From contig CAWBOK010000005.1 in NCBI GenBank assembly GCA_963790415.1, forward strand, positions 75,223 to 139,222: a DNA stretch of 64,000 nt. The letters are read 5' to 3'. This DNA comes from an uncultured Actinomycetota bacterium (lineage in GTDB: Bacteria > Actinomycetota > Thermoleophilia > RBG-16-64-13). How positions within the stretch are numbered: the stretch's first letter is position 1; every line of letters starts with the position of its first letter. Under the pieces are notes generated by a model that worked only from the letters and a program-made list of their open reading frames with translations, was not told the DNA's origin and made no database searches. Shown piece after piece: positions 34,548 to 61,185 of this stretch. The position numbers and the translations under genes are program-made.

Positions 34548-34578
34548 GGGCTGCGTCGGGCGCATGAGCGCGCTCAGA
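34548..34578 (-). mobile_element. Right half of a degenerate attC
   Basis: GCGCTCATGCGCCCGAC resembles the L' boxes at 59930-59945 and 60490-60505; left half absent and R' degenerate. Confidence 0.4.
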
Positions 34579-34938
34579 CTACTCCGGTTGATGCACGAGT
34601 CCAAGTTCCGCGGCCAAGTCGAAGTATCGCCGCGCCTCGACACTGTCGCCGACCCGTTCGTACGAGCCGCCGAGGCTCACGTAGAGCGACGGCAGGAACT
34701 CGCCCGCGCGAGGGTCCAGCCGAGCGCGGCGAAGCGCCTCGACATCCCACTCCAAGGCAGCGGTGGGATCGGGTTCGAGGTGGGCCACGTAGTGCGCGGC
34801 CATCGACGCCTCGTAGTCGTCGGTCGCAGCATCCCACGCCTGCGAGAAGAGCGTGCGGGCGTCATCGAGCCGGCGTTCGAACTCAGCCCGATTGCCGGCC
34901 ATACAGAGCTCAGCTGTCCGACTGCTCAGGTCCAACAA
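34579..34938 (-). CDS. Hypothetical helical-repeat protein
   Basis: LCMAGNRAEFE...AWDAATDDYEASMAAHYVA...SLYVSLG. Confidence 0.65.
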   Translation of the reverse strand: MLDLSSRTAELCMAGNRAEFERRLDDARTLFSQAWDAATDDYEASMAAHYVAHLEPDPTAALEWDVEALRRARLDPRAGEFLPSLYVSLGGSYERVGDSVEARRYFDLAAELGLVHQPE

Positions 34939-35384
34939 GATCGCTCCGGGTTGGCGTAGCCACGTCCGCCATGCCCTCCAGGGGAGTGACGACTATCGAC
35001 TCGGCGGACCTGCCCGTCGGCCCGTGGTAGACCGCTTCGATGTTGTTTCCATCGGGATCGAGAACGTACGCCGCATAGTAGCCTGGGTGGTACGCGCGCT
35101 CGCCTGGGCCTCCGTTGTCCCTGCCGCCCGCTGCCATGGCGGCAGCTGAAGAACCGACCGACTTCGCCTCGGTCTCGGGCTTGAAAGGCGAGATGTACCC
35201 GAGAGACCGGTCCGTCCGCCATGTCCACCCACAGCTCGTCGGCGGAGAAGTGGGCGGCACCTTCGGTCATGGCGTCCAAGCGACCGAGCGCAGCAAGCAC
35301 GGCCTTGTAGAACCGCTTGCTGGCTGTCAGATCCGCTACACGCAGGTGTACGTGGTCTATCAGTCTGCCACGATGGAACTGCAT
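34910..35384 (-). CDS. VOC/glyoxalase family protein; frameshift near 35150
   Basis: IDHVHLRVADLTASKRFY, VHLAFQA; the frame resumes as GGRDNGGPGER.YHPGYYAAYVLDPDGNNIEAV. Confidence 0.88.
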
Positions 35385-35494
35385 AGCCCCTCCGATCCGG
35401 GCGATCGTGTTGAGCGCGCGAGCCACGCGCCTCGTGCCCCGGTCAGCAGATGACGAAACCGCGTGTTGGGCAAGCATCACGTCTTTGCTCTTCT

Positions 35495-36307
35495 TCACCA
35501 TAAGAACGCGACCCCGCGTTTGCCAAAGATGTGGTCATCAAATATCACTGTGGCTTGCTTGTTCGCCATACCGACACACACGTGGAGTGGCAACAAATGC
35601 TCTTCGCGAGGGTGACAGTAGCGCGCCGAAGGTGCGCTTTCCCACTCGATCAGACGTTGTTCGCGATCGGATTGGGCCAGCGGACCCGTGCACACTTCGA
35701 TCAGCCAGTCTTGAAAGGCGTCATTGGCTGGATCTGGCGCATTCATTCCGTCTCGAAAGAATGCCGTCATGTTGTGGAACGAAAACCCAGATCCCACCAC
35801 TAGAATATTCACGTGCATCAACTCGCGCAATGCTGTTCCAAGAGCTATGTGCGCGGTCGGGTCAAGACCACGCACCAACGAAAGTTGAAGCGACGGAATA
35901 TCGGCGTGTGGGTACATCAGCTTCAGCGGGATGAATAGGCCATGGTCGAATCCCCGCTGAGCGTCGATGCGAGCCGGCACATTGTTCTCATTCAACAGTT
36001 CGGCGATCCTCTGTGCCAGATTGGGGCTACCAGGAGCTGGATAGGTGATTTCATACGCTTGATCAGGGAAACCATAGTAATCGTAGAACATGGAAGGCGC
36101 GTGTGCGCCCAACAGTGTCGCGGTGCGTTCTTCCCAATGGGCGCTGATGACGAGGATAGCTTCCGGCTTCTTCAACCGAGAGGGAAGCTGAAGCATGAAA
36201 TCCACCATCGCCTTGTGGCCCGGGTCTCCGAGAATCGGCAAAGGACCTCCGCCATGGGAGAAGTAGACGATTTGAGCCGCATCCTGAGGGTCGTCTTCGT
36301 TCAGCAT
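35495..36307 (-). CDS. LigB/DODA-type class III extradiol dioxygenase, AT-richer than its flanks
   Basis: FSHGGGP, VISAHWE, RGFDHG, GSGFSFHN, HPREEHLLPL. Confidence 0.92.
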   Translation of the reverse strand: MLNEDDPQDAAQIVYFSHGGGPLPILGDPGHKAMVDFMLQLPSRLKKPEAILVISAHWEERTATLLGAHAPSMFYDYYGFPDQAYEITYPAPGSPNLAQRIAELLNENNVPARIDAQRGFDHGLFIPLKLMYPHADIPSLQLSLVRGLDPTAHIALGTALRELMHVNILVVGSGFSFHNMTAFFRDGMNAPDPANDAFQDWLIEVCTGPLAQSDREQRLIEWESAPSARYCHPREEHLLPLHVCVGMANKQATVIFDDHIFGKRGVAFLW

Positions 36308-36324
36308 TGAGATCCTTCCAGACG

Positions 36325-36349
36325 CTTCGGGTTGATGCTCCTGTTGGAC
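36325..36349 (-). mobile_element. Left half of an attC
   Basis: GTCCAAC AGGAGCATCAACCCGA gives R'' plus spacer plus an L''-like box; no matching right half. Confidence 0.4.
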
Positions 36350-36369
36350 AGGTGTCGGTTCGAGTGCCA

Positions 36370-36534
36370 TCAACCAATGCTCGCCGCTCGGCGGGTCGTC
36401 GAATCTGCGCAGACGCCGGAATCCGGCCTTCCCGTGGGTTCAAATTGCGGCATCTGCAGCCAGGCGGCCACCAGGTCGGCGCGGGATTCGAAATCGAAGC
36501 GCTCAAGTCGAACCGTCTCGACAGTATCGGGCAT
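36370..36534 (-). pseudogene. Probable GNAT N-terminal stub
   Basis: AAGGAGG RBS; VRLERFD...DLVAAWLQMP, then the similarity is lost. Confidence 0.4.
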
Positions 36535-36559
36535 GTTCAGCCTCCTTGCCGCTCACTTG

Positions 36560-37080
36560 CTAGGTGAGCGATCCGCCCGCGGGCTCGAAGACCACGTCGA
36601 AGCGTTCACAGACGACCGGCATGTCCGGCGTTGCGACCTGACCCATGCCGGCGAGTTCGCGGACGAAGTACGCCCAGTGGACTTCGCGCCAGTACTCCAA
36701 GGAGCGGTCACCCTCGCCCTCGTCGTATGCGAACTGCTCGTCGACCGCATCGAAGGCCACGATGGCAACCGATGTCGTCTGGATGACGCAGCGAGCGACT
36801 CCCGAGCCGTCGGTCACGACACTGAAGTCCCCGATGCACGGCACGGCCTCGCCCTCAAGCCCGTAGGCCCACAGCGAGCCGGTGGTCGCGCGCTTGGGAC
36901 CTGAGAGCACGAGCGCGAGCAGGCGATCGCCCTGCTCCACCCCGTAGCCGAACTGCCAGGACGTGTACGGCGCATCGGCCGCAGACACAGCTGCTTCGCA
37001 GCCCGAGACTAGGAACTTGCTCCACAGGCCTGCAGACGAATCCCACGGCGCATCCTCGTGGAAGCCGATACTCAATCGCA
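36560..37080 (-). CDS. ASCH domain protein (start uncertain)
   Basis: WQFG...LLALVLSGPKRATTGSL, DEGEGDRSLEYWREVHW, VVCERF. Confidence 0.85.
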
Positions 37081-37082
37081 GC

Positions 37083-37170
37083 ACCTCGCAGATGCGAACA
37101 ACCCCAACATCTATTCTACGCCGCCGCGCCGACAACGTCCGCGCGGCTCGGGTTGATTCGCTTGCCCGGC
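37083..37170 (-). mobile_element. attC site with mutated R boxes
   Basis: L'' GCGAATCAACC pairs with L' GGTTGTTCGC with one extrahelical base; R'' GCCGGGC, R' GCGAGGT; 24 bp after the GNAT stop. Confidence 0.6.
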
Positions 37171-37194
37171 GTGGACCACCAGAACCGAAGGACA

Positions 37195-37767
37195 TCACGC
37201 CTGTGACCTCCCATCCCATTCCGACGCCAACACGGCGAAGACGACGTCGTCTGCCCACTCCCCCTTGAAACGGAGGCTCTCGCGGAAGTGGGCCTCCTGC
37301 TGCATCCCTACCCGCTGCAAGAGACGCACAGACGACGCATTGCGCGGATCGACCGACGCGAAGACGCGATGCTTGTCCAGCCGCCCGAACAGGTAGTCGA
37401 GCAATCCGACTACGGCCTCCGTCCCAAGGCCCTTGCCCTGCGAAGCCGGTTCCAATGTGAAGCCAATCTCCACCTGCCGACCGTCCTCGAGGAAGTGGAC
37501 GCCGAGATCACCGATGAGCCGATCGGAGTCGCGAAGGCGGACGCCAAGCTGGAACCACGTCCCGGGCGAGTCGAACTCGATGGGCTCGTGATCCTCGATG
37601 AAGCGGACAGCATCGTCGATGTGCAACGGTTCCCAACTCTGGTACCGGCATACCTCCGGCAGCGCGCGGTAAGAGAAGAGTGCCTCCGCGTCGGAGACCA
37701 AGAGAGGGGCAAGACTCAGCCTGTCGGTGGCTATCTCCGGTGCTGACACGTTGGTCCTGCCCATCAT
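37195..37767 (-). CDS. GNAT N-acetyltransferase (RimJ/RimL-like)
   Basis: PEVCRYQSWEP, LIGDLGVHF, EIGFTL...QGKGLGTEA, EAHFRES...WADD. Confidence 0.92.
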   Translation of the reverse strand: MMGRTNVSAPEIATDRLSLAPLLVSDAEALFSYRALPEVCRYQSWEPLHIDDAVRFIEDHEPIEFDSPGTWFQLGVRLRDSDRLIGDLGVHFLEDGRQVEIGFTLEPASQGKGLGTEAVVGLLDYLFGRLDKHRVFASVDPRNASSVRLLQRVGMQQEAHFRESLRFKGEWADDVVFAVLASEWDGRSQA

Positions 37768-37786
37768 CGGACCCCCATATACGCCC

Positions 37787-37846
37787 GGCTAACGCCTGGC
37801 GCTTGACTTGCGGGCTTTGCCCGTCGGGTCGACGTGCTTGTTCGGT
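37787..37846 (-). mobile_element. attC site (60 bp)
   Basis: ACCGAAC...CGGGCAAAGCCCG...GTTAGCC; 10 bp after the hicA stop and about 20 bp before the next ATG. Confidence 0.72.
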
Positions 37847-37856
37847 GCGCGCAGCC

Positions 37857-37973
37857 TCACAGATCCTCGGGACGCAGTCCCGTGTTCTTTGAAATACGCG
37901 CCAACATGCGAGGGCCGTTCTCTTCGCCGTCGTGGGGAACGAGCTTGGTGCGCGCGCTCGGCCAGTCGCTCAT
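37857..37973 (-). pseudogene. hicA: HicA toxin with an in-frame internal deletion (38 aa)
   Basis: MSDWPSART|KLVPHDGEENGPRMLARISKNTGLRPEDL: both ends typical, central GSH segment missing. Confidence 0.72.
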
Positions 37974-38182
37974 GCAGCGGCGAAGGTGATGTTCAGAAGC
38001 TCGTGATTGGCCTCATCGTGCTCGAGACGGTCGGCAACCACCCGCAAGGCAAGGGCCTGTACCCGGGCGACGGCGTCGTCCTCGGTGATGCCGTAAGCGA
38101 GTACGCCGGGGAGCTCGACGACCTCAGCAATCCAGCGCCCGTCGGCCTCGAGCTCAAGTTCAATTGTGAAGACCTCCGACAC
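37970..38182 (-). CDS. hicB: HicB family antitoxin
   Basis: IELELEADGRWIAEVVELPGVLAYG.T.DDAVARVQALAL. Confidence 0.88.
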   Translation of the reverse strand: MSEVFTIELELEADGRWIAEVVELPGVLAYGITEDDAVARVQALALRVVADRLEHDEANHELLNITFAAA

Positions 38183-38294
38183 CGCTCCACCTCCCGAGAG
38201 ACTGCCGCAAGCATACTACGCTCGGATCAGAAACATCGTTCCCCGCTCGCCTTTCATTCTGGCCGATGCACTCTGGCCGATACACGATGGACCT

Positions 38295-38354
38295 GTCGAA
38301 CGCCCGTCACCAGCGGTGCCGCACGGCGCCGTCGGCCGCATGCCGTTGTTAGGC
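38295..38354 (-). mobile_element. attC site (60 bp) directly after hsdR
   Basis: GCCTAAC AACGGCATGCGGCCGACGGCGCCGTGCGGCACCGCTGGTGACGGGC GTTCGAC; 7 bp from the hsdR stop. Confidence 0.75.
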
Positions 38355-38361
38355 GCCCCCT

Positions 38362-41497
<3,136 letters not shown>

Positions 41498-41501
<4 letters not shown>

Positions 41502-41746
41502 CCGATCACCTTCCAGTGTCCGCCTTTGGCGGAGCCGACCCGTACAAGCAGGCCTGAATCACGAAGTATCCGAATCGCGCGGTGGATCGCGCTCTCGGAC
41601 TTGTCCATGAGGGCTGCCAGTTGTGACACAGACAGATCTGGCTGGTCCTTGAGGAGCCGCAGGATCTCCGTCGGGGCTTTCCCTAGCGTTTCCCTGGCGT
41701 TTCCCTGGCGTTCCCCCGGCGTCCTCCCTGGCAATGTGAACGTCAT
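41498..41746 (-). CDS. Small winged-HTH protein (82 aa), possibly the remnant of a longer ATP-binding/Fic regulator
   Basis: [54 protein letters not shown]; GAGGGGG RBS; GTGA overlap with hsdR. Confidence 0.7.
41678..41721. repeat. Four tandem 11-bp units TT(T/C)CCC(T/C)(A/G)GCG
   Basis: TTTCCCTAGCG TTTCCCTGGCG TTTCCCTGGCG TTCCCCCGGCG. Confidence 0.85.
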
Positions 41747-42301
41747 GACCACCGCCCCCTCGCGCGACGACACCGTCGGCGAGCAAAGGAAGTCATCGAT
41801 GCGCCGCCTGAACCAAGCCATGCGGCGAGCCGATGGCGTGAGTTGGTACAGTGTCATCGCGACATTGCAACGCGATTGGTGTCGCGAAAGAGGCCACAGC
41901 GACGATTGGCGGCGCACGACGAGGGCACTACAGTATCCTTGGGACTGGGGATTCTCGGTCGGCAATTGGCCTCGGCGGAGTCGTCGGGGTCTTTTGCTTT
42001 TCACGGGAACACCTTGAGACCGCGCCCGGCCCAGTCGCTGTTCCTGTCCGTGCAGCATCTTGCAGCATCTTGCCCGGATCATCGCCATGACCGGTCCTTT
42101 CGCCGGACAGCGAAGAACCCCGGCCCCCGCGCCTGCAGCCGCCGCTCGTTCGGCGTGTGGCCGGGTGAGAGGTCCTCGCGAAGAGTGCGCGGCGCCCAGA
42201 TTCGGAACTGGGTGCCACGCCTGGAGTTGACGCGCTGACCGACACCGGATTCGGCGAAGGTGGTCATGGCCCGTTGTGATAACTCACCCGCCCAGAGTCA
42301 C

Positions 42302-42916
42302 TCACGCAGTCGCCTCGATGATCGCTTCGCGCAACTTCACGAAGCTGCGCGATCCGCTGCTACTGGGGTCGAGATGGGCACCCATCGTGCGCGCTGCCTC
42401 CACCTTGCGCAAGCCGGTTCTGAAGTAGCCGTGCCGTCGAAGGACGCGCTCGAACGCTTCCCAGGAGCCGCGGATCGCGTCAGGGTCGCGATAGCCCGCT
42501 CGGTTCGGGATGGTGCGGGGCACCCTCGGGTAGGCAGCGCGCACCGCCTCCCAATCGCCAAAGTACCAGCCCTCAAGCTCCTCGATCGCGATACGGTTGA
42601 CTAGTTTCCACGCTGCCCCGCCTGCGACCGATCGGGTGCGCAACCCGGCTGCTGCAGCCATGCATTCGAGTTGCCGCTTCAGAGCCCGGCAATCGTCGTC
42701 ATCGCGATCCACGACAACCACGATGCGCCAGTCGGCCGGCAACCACCGTGCATAGCCGTGCAGGCGATCCTGCAGCTTGTGCAACAGGTCGGCCTTGCCC
42801 TGGAACGCGTGAACCTCGAACGTGCGATCACAGGGCAATAGACGGGGCAGCAGGGCGCGCAGGAAGGCCTCCATCGAGGGCTCCTCTACCAGCAATTCCA
42901 GATGCCGCGCTCTCAT
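42302..42916 (-). CDS. DUF4276 family (TOPRIM-like) protein
   Basis: [21 protein letters not shown] and [11 protein letters not shown]; ATGA overlap with the ATPase stop. Confidence 0.8.
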
Positions 42917-44145: not shown

Positions 44146-44156
44146 CTATTCCTCCG

Positions 44157-46138: not shown

Positions 46139-46166
46139 GGGCTATCCTCCAAAGCCGTGTCCACGC

Positions 46167-49768: not shown

Positions 49769-49835
49769 GGGATGATGCCTCCTCTTGGCGCGACGCATCC
49801 TCCTCGGTGGCCGCGCGTCGACAGCGACTGCGTGG

Positions 49836-50333: not shown

Positions 50334-50396
50334 TTCCGGCCATCCCTGTATCGATGAATCATCTTACTATCTTTTCTATACCCTGCTATCCGCCAG

Positions 50397-50455
50397 GCCT
50401 AACGACCGAAGGTCTACGCCGATAGGCGAACCGCGTCAACGGCGCCGAGTTCGCT
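50397..50455 (-). mobile_element. attC site (59 bp)
   Basis: AGCGAAC immediately after the vapC stop ... GTTAGGC; internal pairing imperfect. Confidence 0.6.
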
Positions 50456-51135: not shown

Positions 51136-51150
51136 CGCGCCTCCTTTCGG

Positions 51151-51167
51151 AATCTGATAATCAGATT
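51151..51167. promoter_or_regulatory. Perfect palindrome AATCTGAT-A-ATCAGATT, likely TA operator
   Basis: 15 bp upstream of the antitoxin ATG; overlaps a TAATCT -10-like hexamer. Confidence 0.7.
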
Positions 51168-51209
51168 ACATGAGCCGCAGCGCGAATGCCAGCGCAGGCC
51201 CCCGGCTCC

Positions 51210-53126: not shown

Positions 53127-53344
53127 GACTCCTCCGGATACTGGAACACCTCGTCGAGAGGCACGCCGAACACCTTCGCGATCTGGAACGCCATCTCCAG
53201 CGAAGGCGAGTAGCGCCCCTGTTCGATGGCGATGACGGTCTGCCGCGTCACGTGCAGCCGGCCGGCGATCTCGGCCTGCGTCATCTCGCCGTTGGCGAAC
53301 CGCAGCGCTCGGATCTTGTTGGTGACCCTCGTGGGCTTGCCCAT
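53123..53344 (-). CDS. XRE-family HTH regulator
   Basis: MTQAEIA..LHVTRQTVIAIEQGRYSPSLEMAFQIA. Confidence 0.92.
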   Translation of the reverse strand: MGKPTRVTNKIRALRFANGEMTQAEIAGRLHVTRQTVIAIEQGRYSPSLEMAFQIAKVFGVPLDEVFQYPEES

Positions 53345-53346
53345 GG

Positions 53347-53799
53347 CTAGAAGCCCCTGTGGTAAGCGACGAGCTTGACCGCAGATGAGACAAGTGAAGC
53401 GACCACGAACGACAGATACAGCGCGTTCGCTATCCAGAAGTATTCGAACTCCAGCATGGTGAGCGCAAGTACTCCCACCATTCCGGCGGAGAGAACGTAG
53501 TACCCGACGAGCTCGCCGCGCCGTTTGATGTGTACGTCCCGCTCGTCTTTGCGGTCGATCTCATCGACCGAACCGCTTCCCGTGACCTCCCCCGAGATGG
53601 CCGTGCCGATCGCGGCGAGTATCGTGCCTACGATCGTCACTGCGATCGCCGCTCCGATGGCGATGAGCATGGGCTTCTGATAAGCGATCTCGGAGACAGG
53701 AACATCTCCCACCCGACCCAGCACGGTCGCGAAATAGACCGCGGACACAGCGGCGGTGACCACCGCGAACACCCACGTCAGCTTTTCTTCGAATGGCAT
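53347..53799 (-). CDS. Membrane protein partnering the XRE regulator
   Basis: DERDVHIKRRG and FWIANALYL; 4 TM segments. Confidence 0.78.
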   Translation of the reverse strand: MPFEEKLTWVFAVVTAAVSAVYFATVLGRVGDVPVSEIAYQKPMLIAIGAAIAVTIVGTILAAIGTAISGEVTGSGSVDEIDRKDERDVHIKRRGELVGYYVLSAGMVGVLALTMLEFEYFWIANALYLSFVVASLVSSAVKLVAYHRGF

Positions 53800-53812
53800 C
53801 GTGGCCTCCTGA

Positions 53813-53878
53813 GATGTCAGGTATATTTGACATCTTCACTGTAAAGCACACCAGACATTCTGTCAAGTCTGTTTGACG
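53813..53878 (-). promoter_or_regulatory. Promoter TTGACA-N17-TACAGT with operator GATGTCA-N8-TGACATC
   Basis: -35 at 53861-53866, -10 at 53838-53843; palindrome at 53813-53834; second TGTCAA..TTGAC repeat at 53861-53878. Confidence 0.78.
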
Positions 53879-54573
53879 CCATCGTGATCGAGTCCTTCTG
53901 TCTTCGTCGCCACGACGAAGTACTCTGACGTGCTGGGGGCCAACTCCTCGATCTCGACAATGACCAAACCGGCGGCGTTCATGGACTCCTGCAACTCCGC
54001 GATGGTGCATCGCCACACATAGGGGATCAGTCCCAGCCTACTGGCCAAGCTCACGAGGAGCATCACACTTCTGACCCGCACTGTCCCCCTCTCCGCCGCG
54101 CAGGGCATCACCGAGATGAGACAACCTCCCGGCTTCAGCAGTTCGTCTATCCTTAGCAGAGCCTTCGGTGCGTCTTCCAGCAGGTGGAATATGTTGAAGG
54201 CAAGGACCACTTCGAATGACTCACGCTCGAGGCTTTCGTCGAAGATCGTGGCCTTCGTGAAAGACACATTGGCGACCTTGCCCGCTTCTGCCGCTTCTCG
54301 TGCGGCAGCGATCATCTTGGACGAGATATCGATACCGTGGATCGCCTTGACGGCAGGCGCAAGCTTCAGGTCTACGCTGCCTTTCGCACACCCGTAGTCA
54401 AGGATAGTATCCGTGGCTTTGAGGTACGGCCTGGTCTTGGCCAGGACCTTGGTGTCGGTCTGCCCGGACTCGTCGGTTGGTTCGTCCCAGACACGGGCGA
54501 GTCTATCCCAGAACTTCTCCGCCTTGCTCCTTCGTGGTTCCACGGCTAGTGCGTTTTCTCTGTATGACTCCAT
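53863..54573 (-). CDS. Class I SAM-dependent methyltransferase
   Basis: ILDYGCAKGS, GIDISSKMI, LLKPGG. Confidence 0.9.
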   Translation of the reverse strand: MESYRENALAVEPRRSKAEKFWDRLARVWDEPTDESGQTDTKVLAKTRPYLKATDTILDYGCAKGSVDLKLAPAVKAIHGIDISSKMIAAAREAAEAGKVANVSFTKATIFDESLERESFEVVLAFNIFHLLEDAPKALLRIDELLKPGGCLISVMPCAAERGTVRVRSVMLLVSLASRLGLIPYVWRCTIAELQESMNAAGLVIVEIEELAPSTSEYFVVATKTEGLDHDGVKQT

Positions 54574-54708
54574 CGTTTCTCGCCTCCACTGGCTGCCTTT
54601 CGTGCGGCTTCAGTGTCTCACTTCGTCAAAGCCGGTTGACCAGGCACATGGCGGGTTGCGAGATGGCCGACCGGGGGGGTCTTCGCCTGGCCGGATAGGC
54701 GGCCAATG

Positions 54709-55580
54709 CTAGTAGTTGCCGTCGATGAGCACGGCTGCCCGGCCGTGAGAGAAGGTATTGCCTTCCCAGAACCGCGGTTCCACCACGAATCGGCCGGTCT
54801 TGTCGATGTAACCGGTCTTCCCGTCCACCAGGACGAAGGCAAGGCCGTCCGAGAAGTCTCCCCCCATCGCGTTTCGCGCATTATGGTCCACGGCGAACCA
54901 CGGATCGACGATCGAGGTACCGGACGCGTCGATGTAGCCGTAGGTGTCGCCCACCACCGCGCGGGCGCGTCCCTCCGAGAAGGGGAAGGCCCGGTCGAAC
55001 CGGGGCGGGATGACGAGATTTCCCGCCGTGTCAATGTATCCCCACTTCCCTCCCGTGCGCACCGGCGCAAATCCGTCCGAGAAGCGCGAGGCCTCTTCGA
55101 ACCGAGGAGCGATGACCATCAGTCCGCTCGTGTCGACGAAGCCGACCTTGACGCCCACGCTCACCCCGGCCAACCCCTGGGGAGAAGTTCTGGGCGCTCT
55201 CGAAACGGGGCTCGATGACGAACACGCCCCTGGTATCGATGTACCCGTCGCCACCGCGCGCGCTTACGACAGCCAACCCGTCTGAGAAGTCGGTGAAGAA
55301 CTCGTATTGGGCCTTGATCACCAGCTTCCCGGTCGTGTCGATGTACCCAGCCTTGGTCCCGTCGCCTTCGGTAACGGCGGCACGGCCGTAGGAGAAGCTG
55401 GAGGCGGTGGCGTAGTGGGGAGTGATGACGAACGCCCCCGTGGCGTCGACGTACCCCCACCCCGCATCCGACGCTGCCGGGGCGAGACCGCCCACACCAC
55501 CGACGGCAGTCGCGGTTCCGCCGGCGGTCGGACCCACGCGGCCTTCCTGAGCCGACGGAGGCGGGAGCAGTCGGGCGATA
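54709..55580 (-). pseudogene. WG-repeat (KWG) protein, apparently truncated at both ends, frameshift near 55177
   Basis: Repeated WGYID.TG.FVI.P.F...FSEG units. Confidence 0.8.
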
Positions 55581-55585
55581 CCGCC

Positions 55586-55683
55586 GGGCCGTGTTCCGGC
55601 ATCAGCCTGAAGCGCGCCCCGATGTCTCCCTTGTCGAGAATACCCGAGCAGAGCGCGCTTTCTGCTGCATGCCGTCGCTAGAC
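55586..55683 (-). mobile_element. attC site with mutated R boxes (98 bp)
   Basis: R'' GTCTAGC overlaps the stop; L'' GGCATGCAGC pairs with L' GCTGATGCC with one extrahelical G; inner GCGCGC arms. Confidence 0.65.
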
Positions 55684-56421
55684 CATCGGGGAAGGCAGGA
55701 AGCTCTTCCCCTGCTCTAGAGCCTCAGCCTCTCGTTGCCGGATCTCTGCCGGCCGTGACGTCGTGCGCAGCAGGACGATCCCGAGCCCCACGAACCACAC
55801 GATCTGCAGCAACCCGAAGACGATACCCACGTCATTGAGTGCCGGCACGACGGAGAGGACGCCTGCCGCGCCGATGGCCACTCCGAGCCAGTTCAGCACC
55901 TGGGGCAGTCCCTGGGTGCGCAGCGCAGCCAGGCTCAGCAGCAGGACCCACAGACCGCCGAGAAGCTCACCGCCGGATCCACCGAGGCCTTGAGCCACAG
56001 GCTCGATCGCCTGCCAGGCAGCTACGGCCTCAGCCGGACTGGTGCCCTGGAGTCCGACGACCGCCGCCATGCCCGCGTTGAAGATCATCCCGCTCGCCAC
56101 GAGCACGATGGCCCAGATGAGTCCCACGGCGGTCGCCGCCTGCATCAAGGTCGGGGCTCCGTCTTTCAGGCGCGCATAGACCGCCAACGAAAGGACGGCC
56201 AAGGCGATGCCGAAGATGACGTATGTGATCAGGTACATGGCCTGCATGCTGTTGTGGTTACCCACGAGCAGGGCCACCTTCTCAACGGGATCCGTGACAC
56301 TCGGGTACTTTGCGAACACGAGGAAGTAGGGCATGGCCACTATGTAGGCCAGAGCCAGGTAGAGTGCGGCCAGGCCCCCCACCTTCTGCTGCCGCACAAT
56401 TCCACCGACGGACGAATTCAT
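55678..56421 (-). CDS. DUF4386 family membrane protein
   Basis: GGLAALYLALAY, GLIWAIVLVASGMI, GGSGGELLGGLWV, FGLLQIVWF. Confidence 0.78.
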   Translation of the reverse strand: MNSSVGGIVRQQKVGGLAALYLALAYIVAMPYFLVFAKYPSVTDPVEKVALLVGNHNSMQAMYLITYVIFGIALAVLSLAVYARLKDGAPTLMQAATAVGLIWAIVLVASGMIFNAGMAAVVGLQGTSPAEAVAAWQAIEPVAQGLGGSGGELLGGLWVLLLSLAALRTQGLPQVLNWLGVAIGAAGVLSVVPALNDVGIVFGLLQIVWFVGLGIVLLRTTSRPAEIRQREAEALEQGKSFLPSPMV

Positions 56422-56479
56422 TCGGGTCTCCTCTCTCGTCTGAGCATGGTGCGCTTCCGCCCAGACACGTTCGCTGTTA

Positions 56480-56523
56480 ACTTACTATGTAAGTATGATA
56501 TGCTTACGCTGTAAGTATGTCAA
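56480..56523 (-). promoter_or_regulatory. Promoter TTGACA-N17-TATCAT overlapped by two CTTAC-N3-GTAAG operators
   Basis: -35 at 56518-56523, -10 at 56495-56500; operators at 56481-56493 and 56503-56515. Confidence 0.82.
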
Positions 56524-56573
56524 GAGGTTTCGGCGCTACCGCGCGGCCACTGCGAGAGACCCCGAGGTGGAAG

Positions 56574-57248
56574 ATGCCTGAGCCGACACGACCCACGCCG
56601 AGTCCCGAGCCCCGAGTGCCGCTCACAAGGGATCGGGTGCTCGGTGCCGCCGTCCTGCTCGCCGACGAGGACGGCATCGAGTCACTCACAATGCGCGGGC
56701 TCGGGCTGAGACTCGGCGTGGAAGCGATGTCGCTGTACAACCACGTGGCGAACAAGGACGACATCCTCGACGGCATGGTCGATCTCGTGGTGAGTGAGAT
56801 CGACCTGCCGTCGGACACGGTCGACTGGAAAGAGGCCATGCGCCGGCGGGCGATATCGGCCCAGTCGGTCTTCTCCCGCCACCCGTGGGCGAGTGCTCTG
56901 ATCGATTCACGGATGAGCAGCGGACCTGCGAGGCTACGCTACTTTGACTGGATGTTTGGGACACTCCGGCGGGCCGGGTTCACACTCGAGATGGCCGCGC
57001 GTGCGTTCTCGGTCCTCGACAGCTACATCTACGGCTTCGGTCGACAGCAACTCAACATGTCTGCCGGGCGCGACATCAAGCCCGAGGAGATGGCGGAGGC
57101 CTTTCTCCATGCGCTACCCGCCGATGAGTACCCCTACCTCAGGGAGATGGTCGTCGAGTATGCGATGAACTCCGGCCACGATGAAGAAGCCGACTTCGAG
57201 TTCGGGCTCAACCTCATTCTTGATGGGCTTGAGAGGCTTCTGGATTGA
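56574..57248 (+). CDS. TetR/AcrR regulator with TetR_C domain
   Basis: LTRDRVLGAAVLLADEDGIESLTMR.LG..LGVEAMSLYNHV; FEFGLNLILDGL. Confidence 0.93.
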   Translation: MPEPTRPTPSPEPRVPLTRDRVLGAAVLLADEDGIESLTMRGLGLRLGVEAMSLYNHVANKDDILDGMVDLVVSEIDLPSDTVDWKEAMRRRAISAQSVFSRHPWASALIDSRMSSGPARLRYFDWMFGTLRRAGFTLEMAARAFSVLDSYIYGFGRQQLNMSAGRDIKPEEMAEAFLHALPADEYPYLREMVVEYAMNSGHDEEADFEFGLNLILDGLERLLD

Positions 57249-57249
57249 G

Positions 57250-57612
57250 TTACTCGGGCGATGGCGGCGCCGGCGAAAGGCGGACCTCGACCGGCCCACC
57301 GGTGACCCCGGCGATCTGAGACGCGATCTCGATCGCGCGGGCCTCGCCGGCCACGTCGACCACCCAGTAGCCGATGAGCGATGCCTCCGAAGCGGCGAAC
57401 GAACCGTCGGTCACAACGGGGGCGCCGCCTTCGATGGTGACGAGCTTCGCTGTGCTTCCGTCAGCGAGCCCGAGTTCGAAGACGAGCTCGCCGGACTCTC
57501 TGAGGTCCTTGTCGATCTGGAACATGAACGTCATCATCTTGTCGATCCACTCCGGCGACTTGGTCTCCGTCATGGAGGCCGCCTCGCCGAACATCATGAT
57601 CATGTACTTCAT
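57250..57612 (-). CDS. YciI/DGPF family protein
   Basis: MKYMIMM, VTDGSFA..E..LIGYWVVDV. Confidence 0.85.
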   Translation of the reverse strand: MKYMIMMFGEAASMTETKSPEWIDKMMTFMFQIDKDLRESGELVFELGLADGSTAKLVTIEGGAPVVTDGSFAASEASLIGYWVVDVAGEARAIEIASQIAGVTGGPVEVRLSPAPPSPE

Positions 57613-57668
57613 GTCGTCACTCCCCTTCCGGTGAACCCGACCGGCCTTGTCTCCGGGCGAGCCTCAGG

Positions 57669-58163
57669 TCAAATGCTCTGGGACCACGCGGCGATCGCCT
57701 GCTTCCTATCCGGCGGAAAGTCCTTCCACGCAGTATCGTGCAGCCACGAGAGCGACTTCGCCCTCAAAGCGTCCCGCATGAGTTCCTCCGCGTCCTCGAT
57801 GACAACCTTGATCAAACAAGGGCAGCTGCTCGAAAAGATACTAGGGTCTTCTACAAAGATGTTCTGCTGCCGCAGCTCCGCGCACCGGAAAAAGGGCGCC
57901 GGACCCTCGATCGCCTCGATGACGTCCCAAAAGGAGATCTCCTCTGGGGACTTCGCGAGCTCATATCCACCCCTCGCCCCTGGGACCGATCTGACGATTC
58001 CCGCCTTTCGCAACTTGGAGAACACCTTGGAGAGGTAGGTTTCCGCAATGCCGTTCAGCTTCGCGATGTCCCTGATGCCGATGGTCTGGTGGGGCGGGAG
58101 GTCGACCATGTAGAAGAGCGAGTGAAACGCGTACTCAACGCCGACGCCGAATTGCACTGACAC
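57669..58163 (-). CDS. Rrf2 family regulator
   Basis: VEYAFHSL, TYLSKVF..LRKAGIVRS.PG.RGGYEL, ISFWDVIEAIEG. Confidence 0.92.
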   Translation of the reverse strand: MSVQFGVGVEYAFHSLFYMVDLPPHQTIGIRDIAKLNGIAETYLSKVFSKLRKAGIVRSVPGARGGYELAKSPEEISFWDVIEAIEGPAPFFRCAELRQQNIFVEDPSIFSSSCPCLIKVVIEDAEELMRDALRAKSLSWLHDTAWKDFPPDRKQAIAAWSQSI

Positions 58164-58216
58164 GCCTCCTTCATAGACTTCGCCAACCCAGAATAGCCGA
58201 TTTCCCCAAACACCTC

Positions 58217-58245
58217 TTGACTTGGCCGCCGGCGCCGGGTAGTCT
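58217..58245 (+). promoter_or_regulatory. Promoter TTGACT-N17-TAGTCT
   Basis: Exact 17-bp spacer, upstream of the FMN-binding gene. Confidence 0.65.
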
Positions 58246-58298
58246 ACCCATTGTCGCTAACACGTATCCATAATAACCCAATTTGAGGGGGCGAAAGA

Positions 58299-58670
58299 AT
58301 GTTCACAGAGAAGTTCCTCGAGGTAATCGGCAAAGAGGGAGTCGTGTCCATCGTATCGTGGGACGACAGCGGCGCGCACGTGGTCAACACCTGGAACAGC
58401 TATCTGGTCACCAGGGGAGACGACAGACTGCTGATTCCCGCGCACGCCATGAGGAAGACCGAGAAGAAGACCCAGCAGAACAATAAGGTCTTGCTCACCG
58501 TCGGATCGAAGGAAGTCGAAGGGCACCGGGGCACCGGTGCCGGCTTCTTGCTCGAAGCCACCGCAGCGTTTATCGCCGACGGTCCAGACTTCGACATGAT
58601 GAAGGAGAAGTTCTCGTTCCTGACCCGGGTGCTCGAGGTGACTGTCAGTTCGTTGAAGCAGACGCTGTAG
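58299..58670 (+). CDS. Pyridoxamine 5'-phosphate oxidase-like FMN-binding protein
   Basis: EGVVSIVSW, HVVNTWNSY, GSKEVEG..G.GAGF, KQTL; divergent from Rrf2. Confidence 0.88.
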   Translation: MFTEKFLEVIGKEGVVSIVSWDDSGAHVVNTWNSYLVTRGDDRLLIPAHAMRKTEKKTQQNNKVLLTVGSKEVEGHRGTGAGFLLEATAAFIADGPDFDMMKEKFSFLTRVLEVTVSSLKQTL

Positions 58671-58757
58671 CAGGCGCACGCGCAGGACGGTACGCTATCG
58701 AGGATGCATCGGCGACCGAGCCGAGCGCTCACTCACGACAGGTTGAGTCACGTGTTC

Positions 58758-58786
58758 CAGGGCGCGCACCAAAGGTGCGCGCCCTG
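58758..58786. terminator. Perfect 13-bp GC stem, 3-nt loop, between convergent genes
   Basis: CAGGGCGCGCACC AAA GGTGCGCGCCCTG; no U-tract. Confidence 0.6.
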
Positions 58787-58929
58787 ACCGATGCGCCCGG
58801 AGCGATCCCAGCTGAGTGCGCAGTATGGGCGAGTCTGCCTCCGCCGACGGTGTAGACCTGATGCGCAACGTCACATATCGCCCAGAAACGCGTCCGCGGC
58901 GGCGAACACAGCGTCAGTATCACGACCCG

Positions 58930-58980
58930 CGCGCGCCGTAGACTACCTCACGGCCGCCAAGTCGATTCCCTTTCTTAGGC
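58930..58980 (-). mobile_element. Left part of an attC
   Basis: GCCTAAG AAAGGGAATCGACTTGGCGGC...GGTAGTCT, 17 bp after a stop; right end unclear. Confidence 0.5.
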
Positions 58981-58997
58981 GGCCCCGATTCAGGCGC

Positions 58998-59612
58998 TCA
59001 TTCCGAGTCCAATGCGAACGATCCCGTCACGATCTCACCCGCAGGCTCGTACGTACCGATCACGACGCCGGTCGTGGAGACGCTACTGTCGACGAGCCTC
59101 AGCGCGCCAGGGAAGGTGCCATCAGCGAACAAACGCTTCCCCAAGCCGATGACGAGAGGAAAGACCCACAGCCGGTACTGGTCGACGAGGCCATGGCGCA
59201 TGAGCGTCTGAATCAGATTCCCGCTGCCATGGACTTGCAGCTCGGGCCCGTCTTCCCGCTTGAGCGCCGCGACGCCTTCGGCGGCGTCTCCCTCGATCAG
59301 GATCGACTTGCTCCACTCGAGTGCGGGACGGCTTCTTGACGCGACGTACTTGGTGGCGTCGTTCAGTGGCTTGGCGCCCGCCTCCTCAGGGGCGTGCGGC
59401 CAATATGCGGCAAAGATGTCGTAGGTCTTGCGTCCAAGAACAAGATCGAACGGTTTACCCATGAACTCCTCCATGGCCTGACCCATGAGCTCGTCCCAGT
59501 AGTTCACGGACCAGCCGCCGAAGGCGAAACCGTCGTCGTCCTCTCCGGGTCCGCCCGGGGCCTGCATGACCCCGTCGAGGGTCAAGAAAGTGGTCACAAT
59601 CAGCTTCCTCAT
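58998..59612 (-). CDS. Dihydrofolate reductase / RibD-C family protein
   Basis: MRKLIVTTFLTLDGVMQAPGG, LGRKTYDIF, VHGSGNLIQTL. Confidence 0.92.
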   Translation of the reverse strand: MRKLIVTTFLTLDGVMQAPGGPGEDDDGFAFGGWSVNYWDELMGQAMEEFMGKPFDLVLGRKTYDIFAAYWPHAPEEAGAKPLNDATKYVASRSRPALEWSKSILIEGDAAEGVAALKREDGPELQVHGSGNLIQTLMRHGLVDQYRLWVFPLVIGLGKRLFADGTFPGALRLVDSSVSTTGVVIGTYEPAGEIVTGSFALDSE

Positions 59613-59659
59613 CTCTGTTGTCCTTTCAAGCCGGACACGGCGTGGCCGGCGCCCCCCAT

Positions 59660-59902
59660 CTATCGGAGGAGCGAGAGCACGTACCCGCCGATCGACACGA
59701 GCGCGATCGCGGCGACCACGATGACCACTGCCCACGACAGGCCTTTACCCAGGCCCATCGGTGTCCCCTCGGTCTGCCCACGTCCGGCGAGCCTTTCAAG
59801 AGGACGGTCTTCCTCCGGTGTGGGGTGAAAGGGCCGATCGTCGTACGGAAAAGACTGCTCGAGCTCCGGCTCGCTGAGCACTCGGTCGTCCTGGTCTTCC
59901 AC
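59660..59902 (-). CDS. 80-aa hypothetical protein with acidic N-terminus and C-terminal TM helix
   Basis: Purine-rich RBS and GTG start 20 bp after the attC R'. Confidence 0.6.
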   Translation of the reverse strand: MEDQDDRVLSEPELEQSFPYDDRPFHPTPEEDRPLERLAGRGQTEGTPMGLGKGLSWAVVIVVAAIALVSIGGYVLSLLR

Positions 59903-59922
59903 GTTCTCCCCCTTTCCTTCTC

Positions 59923-60005
59923 ACCGAACGCGTTGCGCATGAGCGGCGCTCACACGCGGGCATAAGGATACCGCTCGCGCCGTCCGTTCGAAGCGCTTGT
60001 CGGGC
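59923..60005 (-). mobile_element. attC site (83 bp)
   Basis: GCCCGAC AAGCGCTTCGAACGGACGGCGC...GCGCCGCTCATGCGCAACGC GTTCGGT; 1 bp after the stop. Confidence 0.75.
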
Positions 60006-60006
60006 C

Positions 60007-60468
60007 TCAAACCCAGCGGCGGACTCGCTTCGAGTAGTCGCGGTAGTCCTGGCCGAGCGAGACCGACAGGGTCAGCTCTTCCGGCCGTATCTGGAAGCGG
60101 GCGATATAGGCGACGAAGAGCGCCGACACCAGGGCGGCTGCCGGGCTCGCCAACGCCACCGCCCAGCCCAACAGTACGATCTCCATTCCGAGGTAGGTCG
60201 GGTTGCGACTGAGACGGTAGACCCCGGAAGTGACAAGTACCGTGGTGCGTCCGGGCTCGGTCGGGTGCCACGTCGTACCTGCGCGGTCCAGCGCGACGCG
60301 GGCTGCGACTATGAGGCCCGTGCCGATGGCCATCAGCATCAGCGCGAGCGGGCGGCGAAGCGATTCTGCGGCGCCGAATCCCGCGGTCACCCGTGAAGCA
60401 AGCCACATCAGGCCCGCAACCACCACCCAGACTACGTCGGGCGGAATCTTCAGCTCAAGACTCGACAT
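60007..60468 (-). CDS. Isoprenylcysteine carboxylmethyltransferase family protein
   Basis: LELKIPP, LVTSGVYRLSRNPTYLG, FQIRPEE, RVRRWV. Confidence 0.92.
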   Translation of the reverse strand: MSSLELKIPPDVVWVVVAGLMWLASRVTAGFGAAESLRRPLALMLMAIGTGLIVAARVALDRAGTTWHPTEPGRTTVLVTSGVYRLSRNPTYLGMEIVLLGWAVALASPAAALVSALFVAYIARFQIRPEELTLSVSLGQDYRDYSKRVRRWV

Positions 60469-60483
60469 CGGACTCCCCAGTAG

Positions 60484-60566
60484 GCCCAACGCGGCGCGCT
60501 GAGCAGACGCCCACGCGCTTTGAGTTCAGTCTACCTTCTGGCGTTCAAACGATGCGCTTGTCAGGC
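60484..60566 (-). mobile_element. attC site (83 bp)
   Basis: GCCTGAC AAGCGCATCG..GAACGCC...GGCGTCTGCTCAGCGCGCCGC GTTGGGC; next ATG 15 bp downstream. Confidence 0.78.
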
Positions 60567-60591
60567 TCGTCCGCCGAGCATCGTAGCCGGC

Positions 60592-61092
60592 CTACGTCCT
60601 AGCCAGAAATGCCGGATGATGCACCACCTCGCCGGCGGGCATCTCACCGGACATCAAGAGACAGAGCACGTTCTCCTCCGGCACCCCGTGCCAGACTACC
60701 CCCGGATACCGCCTGAATCCAAAACGGCCGTAGAAGGCTGGGTCTCCGACCAGCACACACCCGCAGGCTCCCCGAGAGCGCAGCGCATCAAGACCGGTCT
60801 CGACCAGCGCGCGTCCGATCCCCTCGCCTTGGCGGGCTGGCTGGACCGCCACCGGCCCGAGCAGAAACCAGCCGGCCGACGAGCCGCCGATAGCTGCGGC
60901 CGAGAATGCGATGTGACCCACTACCTCGTCGTCAGATTCAGCGACGAGCGACAACTCCAGGGCGTCGGCCGCCCTTAATGCCTCCACGATGAGATGTTCT
61001 GTCTGCTGACTGTAGGGGTGACCCTGGAAAGCGACGATGTTGACCTCCCAGATGCCGTCGAAATCTCGAGTGGTCTCTGGGCGAACAATCAT
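60592..61092 (-). CDS. GNAT N-acetyltransferase (YhbS-like)
   Basis: VVGHIAFS, LLGPVAVQPARQGEGIG, VLVGDPAFYGRFGF. Confidence 0.92.
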   Translation of the reverse strand: MIVRPETTRDFDGIWEVNIVAFQGHPYSQQTEHLIVEALRAADALELSLVAESDDEVVGHIAFSAAAIGGSSAGWFLLGPVAVQPARQGEGIGRALVETGLDALRSRGACGCVLVGDPAFYGRFGFRRYPGVVWHGVPEENVLCLLMSGEMPAGEVVHHPAFLART

Positions 61093-61110
61093 GCAGACTC
61101 CTCTGACTGC

Positions 61111-61185
61111 ACCTGACGTTCGGGCGTTGAGCCGCGCCCGCGGTCGTTCACCTCAGATGCCTCGCGTTCCAGGCGGTTGCCAGAG
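61111..61185 (-). mobile_element. Strongly degenerate attC
   Basis: CTCTGGC AACCGCCTGGAAC...CGGCTCAACGCCCGAAC GTCAGGT between a stop and the next RBS/ATG. Confidence 0.4.

What the first reader, a model, noticed from the sequence alone, without database searches (positions are those of the whole stretch)
34548..61185. Integrase-less, eroding integron cassette array in a probable actinomycete
Seen: attC-like sites at 37083, 37787, 38295, 50397, 55586, 58930, 59923, 60484 and 61111, plus half-sites at 34548 and 36325. All are co-oriented and start 0-25 bp after a stop, and several have L''/L' arms with one extrahelical base. Knowledge: this is the RYYYAAC...GTTRRRY attC architecture; integrons are mainly described in Gram-negatives. 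Inference: a large sedentary array whose intI/attI would lie upstream (beyond 64000) or has been lost.
Basis: partly seen in the sequence, partly recalled or inferred. Interest (0 to 1): 0.8.

Follow-up and report, generated by a model that had tools for sequence, protein, structure and literature searches.

The report
Decaying chromosomal integron in an actinobacterium
The repeats are real integron recombination sites (attC), most of them decayed; they belong to a roughly 76-kb gene-capture locus in a soil Thermoleophilia actinobacterium, and its integrase gene lies just past the window's end rather than being lost.

Summary
A covariance model was built only from 148 attC sites next to integron integrases in 14 other genomes of the same class. 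It finds six of the nine claimed sites: 59923, 37787, 60484, 61111, 38295 and 55583. All six are on the same strand and lie from 6 nt of overlap to 25 nt past the stop of a minus-strand gene. Sites 37083, 58930, 36325 and 34548 are visible only as remnants. Site 50397 is not supported.

"Integrase-less" is wrong for the contig. An integron integrase gene lies about 8 kb beyond the window, at C5:147111-148051. It scores 454 bits against TIGR02249 when read through three frameshifts. The assembly also breaks rpoC, so those frameshifts cannot be interpreted. A deleted second intI copy lies next to leuD.

Most sampled family relatives have leuC-leuD-leuB contiguous. Here 76 kb separates leuD from leuB, and the window from 2294 onwards lies inside that interval. 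Detectable attC sites crowd towards intI. Farther out, genes resemble attC-bounded cassettes of relatives but have no recognisable attC.

The organism belongs to Thermoleophilia (Actinomycetota). IntI scores above the curated cut-off in 29 of 201 sampled genomes of its class. This is a new member of a known kind, the inverted-integrase chromosomal integron.

The parts
61111..61185 (-). attC, eroded. R-box cores read GAC/GCC instead of AAC/GTT. It follows the TetR gene 61209-61853 by 23 nt. The model matched the + strand, which is the bottom strand.
   Evidence: R3 22.4 bits, E 0.003. nhmmer left half E 0.04. R 4/7 and L 10/11 pairs.
60484..60566 (-). attC, partly eroded (AAC kept, GTT changed to GTC, L box 6/11). 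It lies 25 nt after the stop of GNAT gene 60592-61092.
   Evidence: R1 28.4 bits, E 2.5e-5. R3 29.0 bits. Pair counts.
59923..60005 (-). attC, the best-scoring site in the window (AAC kept, GTT changed to GTC). It lies 1 nt after the stop of the PEMT/ICMT-like methyltransferase gene 60007-60489.
   Evidence: R1 33.3 bits, E 1e-6. R3 52.4 bits, E 1.4e-10. nhmmer E 1.9e-8.
55583..55683 (-). attC, eroded. The L box is 10/11 with a bulged C. The R cores read GGC/GCT. It overlaps the stop of the DUF4386 gene 55678-56421.
   Evidence: R3 17.6 bits, E 0.045. Fold and pair counts.
38295..38354 (-). attC with intact AAC/GTT cores but a weak L box (6/11). It lies 7 nt after the hsdR stop.
   Evidence: R3 17.7 bits, E 0.042. 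Pair counts.
37787..37846 (-). 60-nt attC with intact AAC/GTT cores and L box 10/11. It lies about 10 nt after the stop of a 38-aa hicA remnant.
   Evidence: R1 18.5 bits. R3 38.5 bits, E 3.5e-7..
37857..38182 (-). hicB plus an internally deleted hicA cassette. It is a diverged duplicate (about 80% nt identity) of the first cassette next to intI (C5:146438-146862).
   Evidence: Translation and blastn. HicA Pfam hit on the intI-proximal copy.
The L' and L'' arms pair with a bulged G. The R boxes are lost. It lies 24 nt after the stop of GNAT gene 37195-37767.
   Evidence: DNA fold z = -2.18. Coordinates. No CM hit. nhmmer E 3.3.
58961..58980 (-). It lies 17 nt after the stop of RibD_C gene 58998-59612.
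   Evidence: By eye it resembles the right arm of attC C5:144634-144694. No model hit, so it is weak.
36327..36349 (-). Its position is atypical: 210 nt from the upstream stop.
   Evidence: nhmmer 10 bits, E 4 genome-wide. E 3.8. Marginal.
34548..34578 (-). Left-half remnant. The L' motif GCGCATGAGC sits at 34560-34569 and abuts the stop of the TPR-like gene.
   Evidence: Sequence comparison only. No significant model hit.
50397..50455 (-). Doubtful site. AGCGAAC...GTTAGGC stand 59 nt apart directly after the PIN toxin stop. There is no L-box pairing.
   Evidence: No CM hit on the + strand. Fold z = -0.1. The PIN cassette's homologue in a relative (L117) is flanked by attC on both sides. Only the R' end aligns.
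38362..49016 (-). Type I restriction-modification island lying within the locus: hsdM, Fic, a HEPN/MNT pair, hsdS, AAA_21/DUF4276 and hsdR. In this assembly hsdR is split into three ORFs.
   Evidence: Pfam. Frameshift junctions.
2294..64000 (-). The in-window part of the 76-kb leuD-leuB interval occupied by the integron: cassettes, ex-cassettes and inserted islands. Genes are almost all on the minus strand.
   Evidence: Empty site leuC-leuD-leuB in 21 of 29 relative loci. Homologues of relatives' array genes are enriched here.
286..2293 (-). leuB (1202-2293) and ilvE (286-1161). They form the distal chromosomal boundary of the locus.
   Evidence: Pfam Iso_dh and Aminotran_4. Synteny.

Best explanation
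The window lies inside a sedentary chromosomal integron of an uncultured Thermoleophilia (Actinomycetota) bacterium. The integron sits between leuD and leuB.

Layout. The integron integrase gene intI is on the same strand as the cassettes, which is the known 'inverted integrase' layout. It lies about 8 kb beyond the window's right end. The array runs leftward from intI through the window.

How it works (inferred from the family). IntI binds the folded bottom strand of attC, which here is the window's + strand. It recombines attC with an attI site next to intI. New cassettes therefore enter next to intI and older ones are pushed away from it.

What is shown:
- There is a full-length IntI reading, given three frame corrections.
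- There are fifteen co-oriented attC sites with R/L-box geometry, each just after a gene.
- Their density falls steeply with distance from intI.
- The empty leuD|leuB site is seen in relatives.
- Distal genes are homologous to attC-bounded cassettes in relatives.

What is inferred:
- Distal cassettes have lost recombination competence by mutation of their attC sites. The core triplets changed from AAC/GTT to GAC, GTC, GCC or GCT, or the site vanished altogether.
- These cassettes are becoming ordinary fixed chromosomal genes.
- A type I R-M island was added into the locus.
For: IntI:
- TIGR02249 pieces sum to 318 bits against a cut-off of 265. The read-through protein scores 453.9 bits over positions 1-313 of 315.
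- The closest named proteins are 'integron integrase [Thermoleophilia bacterium]' at 80-84% identity.

attC:
- Independent models R1 and R3 hit six window sites and nine more in L009. All are on one strand.
- Pair counts are close to those of 148 attC sites in relatives.

Orientation:
- All 148 attC hits downstream of intI in 14 relatives imply cassettes co-oriented with intI.
- The same holds in the named MAG GCA_054603895.1.

Locus:
- HAD-SLH-DUF218-leuC-leuD-intI synteny is shared with that MAG.
- leuC-leuD-leuB is contiguous in 21 of 29 family loci. Here 76 kb intervenes.

Decay:
- The 12 attC sites on the distal side of intI lie on average 11.5 kb from it, within a 69.6-kb interval. Permutation p is about 1e-5.
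- Median spacing in relatives is 560-950 bp in 10 of the 14 arrays and 1.3-2.8 kb in the other four. In the window there are gaps of 4-17 kb.
- 37 genes of C5:78-151 kb have homologues in relatives' arrays, against 3 of about 110 elsewhere on the contig. Sixteen of these have an attC immediately downstream in the relative.
- Genome-wide, 32 of 86 hit places fall in 2.2% of the genome.
Against: - IntegronFinder's general attC model could not be run. My models derive from one attC lineage and could miss divergent but functional sites.
- Per-site score does not fall significantly with distance (Spearman -0.21, p 0.5). The gradient is in site density only.
- The assembly carries indel errors. rpoC is split over two frames and hsdR is split into three ORFs. 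So neither the intI frameshifts nor small attC defects can be taken at face value.
- The distal 35 kb holds rather large genes, including RsgA, a Na/H exchanger, an E1 dehydrogenase and a glycosyltransferase. These may be other islands rather than former cassettes.
- attI and Pc were not identified.
Confidence: 0.85

Rival explanations
1. Only the roughly 34 kb nearest intI (down to window 37787) is, or was, a cassette array. The R-M block and the distal 35 kb (window 2.3-37 kb) are unrelated genomic islands that landed in the same leuD|leuB hotspot. They are not decayed cassettes.
For: There is no attC hit below 37787 above noise. Distal genes are larger and include housekeeping-like functions. 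The 11-kb type I R-M has no detectable attC upstream. Several homologues in relatives lie beyond the last detected attC of those arrays.
Against: Genes at 6252-7055, 19515-20099, 23729-24313 and 30162-30608 match genes that are followed by an attC within -29 to 23 nt in relatives. Uniform minus-strand orientation runs through the interval. Hits to relatives' arrays are enriched in C5:80-120 kb as well.
Confidence: 0.35
2. The array is fully active and not eroding. On this view the apparent decay is an artefact of a narrow attC model and of indel errors in a long-read MAG assembly.
For: The assembly has indels in essential genes. All three intI frameshifts sit in G runs. A same-genus genome has an intact 364-aa IntI. 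attC sequences are known to be diverse.
Against: The same models find an attC every 560-950 bp in most of the 14 relatives' arrays. The defects in window sites are substitutions in the conserved AAC/GTT cores and in L-box pairs, not single-base indels. Several intergenic gaps are too short to hold an attC.
Confidence: 0.1
3. The repeats are not attC sites but another kind of intergenic palindrome, such as a REP element, a MITE or a terminator.
For: High-GC intergenic hairpins are common. Folding energies of most sites are no better than those of shuffles. Rfam has no hit.
Against: The sites match a model trained on arrays that start 350-600 bp downstream of integron integrases in other genomes. 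They have RYYYAAC/GTTRRRY ends and the bulged base. A full-length intI lies on the same contig.
Confidence: 0.02

Closest known systems
Inverted-integrase chromosomal integrons. Treponema denticola and other non-proteobacterial lineages are cited from my own knowledge. The type itself is described in PMC13323075, citing IntegronFinder 2.
   Same: intI and the cassettes are on the same strand, and the array starts a few hundred bases downstream of the intI stop. The attC sites are canonical, with RYYYAAC...GTTRRRY ends and a bulged base on the bottom strand.
   Different: The host is a Thermoleophilia actinobacterium. The locus is leuD|leuB. There are two intI copies, one of them deleted. Most of the locus has no recognisable attC.
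Xanthomonas ilvD-linked sedentary integrons (Gillings et al. 2005, cited from my own knowledge)
   Same: A chromosomal integron is fixed next to a branched-chain amino-acid biosynthesis gene and is inherited within a lineage. Its intI is often inactivated and its arrays are no longer mobile.
   Different: It has a different phylum, locus and intI orientation. Here the inactivation of intI cannot be established because of assembly errors.
CALIN: clusters of attC sites lacking an integron integrase (Cury et al. 2016, PMC4889954)
   Same: Seen within the window alone, the sites look like CALINs. The pair 37787/38295 lies 17 kb from the next attC.
   Different: An intI lies on the same contig and is linked to the window's right-hand cluster by attC sites less than 4 kb apart. 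So the ensemble is a complete integron with a decayed tail.
Vibrio superintegrons
   Same: They are large sedentary arrays with toxin-antitoxin cassettes (hicBA and PIN here) and homogeneous attC sites within a lineage.
   Different: Vibrio arrays keep more than 100 intact attC sites. Here only 15 are detectable in 76 kb.

Membership tests
Integron | An intI gene: a tyrosine recombinase of the integron-integrase family carrying the IntI-specific extra domain. | tested here: met
   TIGR02249 scores 453.9 bits (cut-off 265) for the read-through of C5:147111-148051, and 318 bits for the summed pieces. The ALDRKYP...WQWAFP segment is present. Caveat: there are three frameshifts in this assembly.
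Integron | attC sites: 57-141-nt imperfect palindromes with R''-L''...L'-R' boxes, conserved AAC/GTT cores and extrahelical bases. | tested here: met
   CM hits. Pair counts. The bulged G is visible. Only 37787 and 38295 keep both core triplets.
Integron | At least two co-oriented attC sites, each following an ORF, clustered with intI. | tested here: met
   Fifteen sites lie on one strand. Stop-to-attC distances are -6 to 25 nt. Successive attC sites from intI to 59923 are at most about 4 kb apart.
Integron | An attI site and a Pc promoter next to intI. | tested here: inconclusive
   Only a candidate GTTGGGC was seen (as GCCCAAC on the + strand) in the 301-nt gap between intI and hicB. There was no comparative or functional test.
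Integron | IntI-catalysed attI x attC recombination. | not testable with these tools
   This needs a recombination assay.
Inverted-integrase integron | intI is transcribed in the same direction as the cassettes. | tested here: met
   intI and the cassette genes are on the minus strand and the bottom strand of attC is on the plus strand. The same arrangement holds for 148 of 148 attC sites in 14 relatives and in L120.
Sedentary chromosomal integron (criteria of Cury 2016) | More than 19 attC sites, or presence in all genomes of the species. | tested here: inconclusive
   Only 15 attC sites are detectable. The same leuD-intI junction occurs in another MAG. The species pan-genome is not available.
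CALIN | An attC cluster with no intI within the clustering distance (4 kb). | tested here: not met
   The cluster 59923-61185 chains to intI through attC sites at C5:140352, 141067, 144023, 144634 and 146368. Only the isolated pair 37787/38295 would formally qualify.

The most novel reading that the evidence does not exclude
Thermoleophilia, and other uncultured Actinomycetota, commonly carry vertically inherited, inverted-integrase chromosomal integrons with their own attC lineage. If so, the published picture that Actinobacteria essentially lack complete integrons is an artefact of sampling cultured Actinomycetes. This locus would additionally record the end stage of integron life: cassettes lose their attC sites and become fixed chromosomal genes across a 76-kb interval.
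Probability: 0.5. Interest if true: 0.6.

Novelty: new member of a known kind. Interest (0 to 1): 0.5.

Why it matters
Published genome surveys report no complete integron in Actinobacteria (IntegronFinder 2.0, PMC9024848). They also report a 'virtual absence' of integrons in Actinomycetota MAGs (PMC13323075).

Dense attC arrays were found in 14 relatives. That suggests a real, under-reported reservoir of gene cassettes in abundant soil bacteria.

This locus also has both chromosomal boundaries defined (leuD and leuB) and an empty site in relatives. It is therefore a clean case for studying how integron cassettes decay into ordinary genes. The element is nevertheless of a well-known kind, it is already labelled 'integron integrase' in NCBI MAG annotations, and several sister cases were seen earlier in this scan.

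Tried and rejected
- Rfam scan of the window: no hits.
- Plain scan for RYYYAAC...GTTRRRY pairs: hundreds of chance pairs, so it was not used as evidence.
- Minimum-free-energy z-scores: uninformative at 65% GC. Most true sites fold no better than shuffles.
- MAFFT alignment A2 shifted the R' box by one column for several sites and was discarded. Model-guided alignments A4 and A5 were used instead.
- The look-up of encoding contigs for a window protein: not on record.
- Search for leuC/leuD next to intI in six relatives from other families: none.
- Distal flank synteny with GCA_054603895.1: its ACAD and ABC genes map to other contigs, so it gives no boundary.
- Correlation of attC score with distance from intI: not significant. 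Only site density shows the gradient.
- Alignment of the region downstream of the window's PIN cassette with the relative's attC: only the R' end aligns.
- Same-genus intI is only 73-74% identical in DNA, so it cannot settle the single-base frameshifts.


Full report
**What the window is.** The window is G000 contig C5:75223-139222 and has about 64-66% G+C. A codon-usage gene call shows that almost every gene from window 286 to 64000 and beyond lies on the minus strand. The claimed sites sit in intergenic gaps on that strand's 3' side of genes.

**The organism.** The rpoB protein is closest to an uncultured Gaiellales MAG (84%) and to Solirubrobacterales MAGs (75-77%). That places the organism in class Thermoleophilia, phylum Actinomycetota.

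**The integrase is not lost.**
- A search of the whole assembly with NCBIfam TIGR02249 (integron integrase) hits C5:147111-148051 on the minus strand. That is about 8 kb to the right of the window's end. The pieces sum to 318 bits against a cut-off of 265.
- The reading frame changes three times, each time in a G run.
- Read through those three points, the protein scores 453.9 bits over positions 1-313 of 315. It carries the IntI-specific ALDRKYP...WQWAFP segment.
- It is 80-84% identical to proteins that NCBI names 'integron integrase [Thermoleophilia bacterium]'.
- I cannot say whether the gene is broken, because the assembly has indel errors. rpoC is split over two frames in four pieces, although rpoB is intact. 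The window's hsdR is split into three ORFs at non-homopolymer positions.
- A same-genus genome has an intact 364-aa IntI.

**A second intI copy.** It lies at C5:153013-153821, directly after leuD. It has a 178-nt internal deletion and lacks its 3' end. It is 97.8% identical to copy 1 over 553 nt but only 84% identical over the adjacent 246 nt.

**Testing the attC claim without circularity.**
- Clean attC sites lie between the window and intI, for example C5:146368-146427, 144634-144694 and 141067-141151. They have RYYYAAC/GTTRRRY ends, paired L arms and a single bulged G in the right arm of the + strand.
- The bulged G and the minus-strand genes together make the + strand the attC bottom strand.
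- Model R1 was built from seven sites, all outside the window. It found window sites 59923-60005 (E 1e-6), 60484-60566 (2.5e-5) and 37787-37846 (0.016). These hits also stand in a whole-genome search.
- I then fetched 20 kb downstream of intI in 14 other genomes of the class. There the model found 148 attC sites. All of them are on the strand that makes the cassettes co-directional with intI.
- In these 148 sites, 84% have the AAC core and 77% the GTT core. Median spacing is 560-950 bp in 10 of the 14 arrays and 1.3-2.8 kb in the other four.
- Model R3 was built from those 148 foreign sites alone. Run without filters, it gives six window hits above noise:

| Window site | R3 bits | E-value |
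|---|---|---|
| 59923-60005 | 52.4 | 1.4e-10 |
| 37787-37846 | 38.5 | 3.5e-7 |
| 60484-60566 | 29.0 | 7.4e-5 |
| 61111-61185 | 22.4 | 0.003 |
| 38295-38354 | 17.7 | 0.042 |
| 55583-55683 | 17.6 | 0.045 |

- The next hit scores 12.7 bits (E 0.7).
- All six are on the + strand. Measured from the stop of the preceding minus-strand gene, they lie from 6 nt of overlap to 25 nt downstream.

**The unsupported claims.**
- Sites 37083, 58930 and 50397 get no model hit.
- 37083 keeps an L-box hairpin with a bulged G.
- 58930 keeps a recognisable right arm.
- 50397 has only the two core triplets 59 nt apart.
- The half-sites 36325 and 34548 are marginal.

**State of the window's sites.**
- In R-box and L-box pair counts the six sites are close to the relatives. 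They have R 4-6 of 7 and L 6-10 of 11, against means of 5.8 and 9.7.
- Only 37787 and 38295 keep both conserved core triplets. The other four read GAC or GGC at R', or GTC, GCC or GCT at R''.
- I infer, but have not shown, that these four are poor or dead substrates.

**How large the locus is.**
- To the right of the deleted intI copy lie leuD and leuC. The order HAD-SLH-DUF218-leuC-leuD-intI is shared with the named MAG GCA_054603895.1. That MAG also has five attC sites and TA cassettes downstream of its intI.
- At the left end of the window lie leuB (1202-2293) and ilvE (286-1161).
- In 21 of 29 loci from relatives of the same family, leuC-leuD-leuB are contiguous with gaps of tens of bases. 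In one further locus leuD lies about 750 nt from leuB.
- Here 76 kb separates leuD from leuB. The window from 2294 to its end is therefore inside the integron-occupied interval.
- Within that interval, 37 called genes of C5:78-151 kb have homologues in the relatives' arrays, against 3 of about 110 elsewhere on the contig.
- Sixteen of the 37 have an attC immediately downstream in the relative. These include genes at window 6252, 19515, 23729, 30162 and 50456, which have no recognisable attC here.
- Genome-wide, 32 of 86 places that match array ORFs of relatives fall in C5:80-160 kb, which is 2.2% of the genome.
- The twelve attC sites on the distal side of intI lie on average 11.5 kb from it, within a 69.6-kb interval. 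Permutation p is about 1e-5. Their individual scores do not decline significantly.

**Gene content.** The content is typical of cassettes: GNAT acetyltransferases, glyoxalase, ASCH, SRPBCC proteins, YCII, RibD_C, methyltransferases, TetR and Rrf2 regulators, and PIN and HicAB toxin-antitoxin pairs. The hicB plus truncated hicA cassette at 37857-38182 is an 80%-identical duplicate of the first cassette next to intI. An 11-kb type I R-M block (38362-49016) lies in the array. An attC follows hsdR by 7 nt, but no attC is detectable upstream of hsdM.

**Interpretation.** This is a sedentary chromosomal integron of the inverted-integrase type. New cassettes would enter at an attI next to intI and old ones drift distally. 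The attI was not identified; a candidate GTTGGGC lies in the intI-hicB spacer. Distal attC sites have decayed or disappeared, leaving former cassettes as fixed genes.

The main uncertainty is how much of the distal 35 kb and the R-M block were ever cassettes, rather than other islands in the same hotspot. A smaller risk is that my lineage-specific models under-detect divergent attC sites.

[quoted passage not shown] The 2016 survey said the same (PMC4889954). A 2026 permafrost MAG study notes a 'virtual absence' of integrons in Actinomycetota and describes the inverted-integrase layout as a known type (PMC13323075). A 2021 review lists Actinobacteriota among phyla with integrons (PMC8618304). 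No paper in the library combines attC with Thermoleophilia taxa.

IntI scores above the curated cut-off in 29 of 201 sampled genomes of the host's class and in 23 of 401 of its phylum.

**Earlier notes of this scan.** They describe sister integrons in other Thermoleophilia genomes. They agree with this reading but are not independent evidence.

**Verdict.** The element is a new member of a known kind, and it is of moderate interest for its host phylum and for its well-bounded, decaying state.

Noticed in passing
window 38362-41501: The type I restriction enzyme gene hsdR is split into three ORFs (HSDR_N; SWI2_SNF2/ResIII; T1R_D3 plus C-terminal domain). The two single-base frame changes are not at homopolymer positions. 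Together with a four-piece rpoC (C3:1153424-1157288), this points to indel errors in the assembly.
   Followed up: partly
window 38295-49336: The 11-kb type I R-M block also carries Fic, a HEPN/MNT pair and AAA_21/DUF4276. It ends 7 nt before an attC. No attC is detectable in the 320-nt gap upstream of hsdM (49017-49336). Whether it is a giant cassette or an inserted island is open.
   Followed up: partly
L009:13791-14599 (C5:153013-153821): A second intI copy lies directly after leuD, at the ancestral position. It has a 178-nt internal deletion and a 3' truncation. It is 97.8% identical to copy 1 over 553 nt but only 84% over the adjacent 246 nt. That pattern suggests gene conversion between two diverged copies. 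Three attC sites (C5:149904, 150489, 152533) lie between the two copies.
   Followed up: partly
G000 C4:93011-93230; C3:451153-451304; C5:141427-141508: There are further short intI fragments at 77-82% nt identity to copy 1: a 3' piece, a 5' piece and an 87-nt piece inside the array. Places matching relatives' array genes cluster near the C4 fragment.
   Followed up: no
G000 C1:712672-714473; C3:537608-537671; C8:224107-224207: Isolated or paired attC sites (17.7-35 bits with R1) lie far from any intI. They look like small CALIN-type clusters elsewhere in the genome.
   Followed up: no
L009:6676-6849 (C5:145898-146071): The best left-half attC match in the genome (GCCTAACGTGTTGCGCTTAACC...) has no nearby right half. 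The model can only pair it with a right end 174 nt away. It may be an interrupted or truncated attC.
   Followed up: no
window 57669-58670: A divergent Rrf2 regulator / PNPOx-like pair is conserved as a unit at 85% protein identity in the array region of a relative (L110:7771-8800). It may be a two-gene cassette with its own internal promoter region.
   Followed up: no
window 19515-20099 and 23729-24313: Two paralogous flavin-reductase-like genes both match, at 62-64%, one attC-bounded cassette of a relative (L108:17388-17957). This suggests cassette duplication inside the locus.
   Followed up: no
window 44157-45725: A 522-aa ORF combines a Polbeta/MNT nucleotidyltransferase domain with a single HsdS target-recognition domain. 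It may be a fusion created by an assembly indel rather than a real protein.
   Followed up: no
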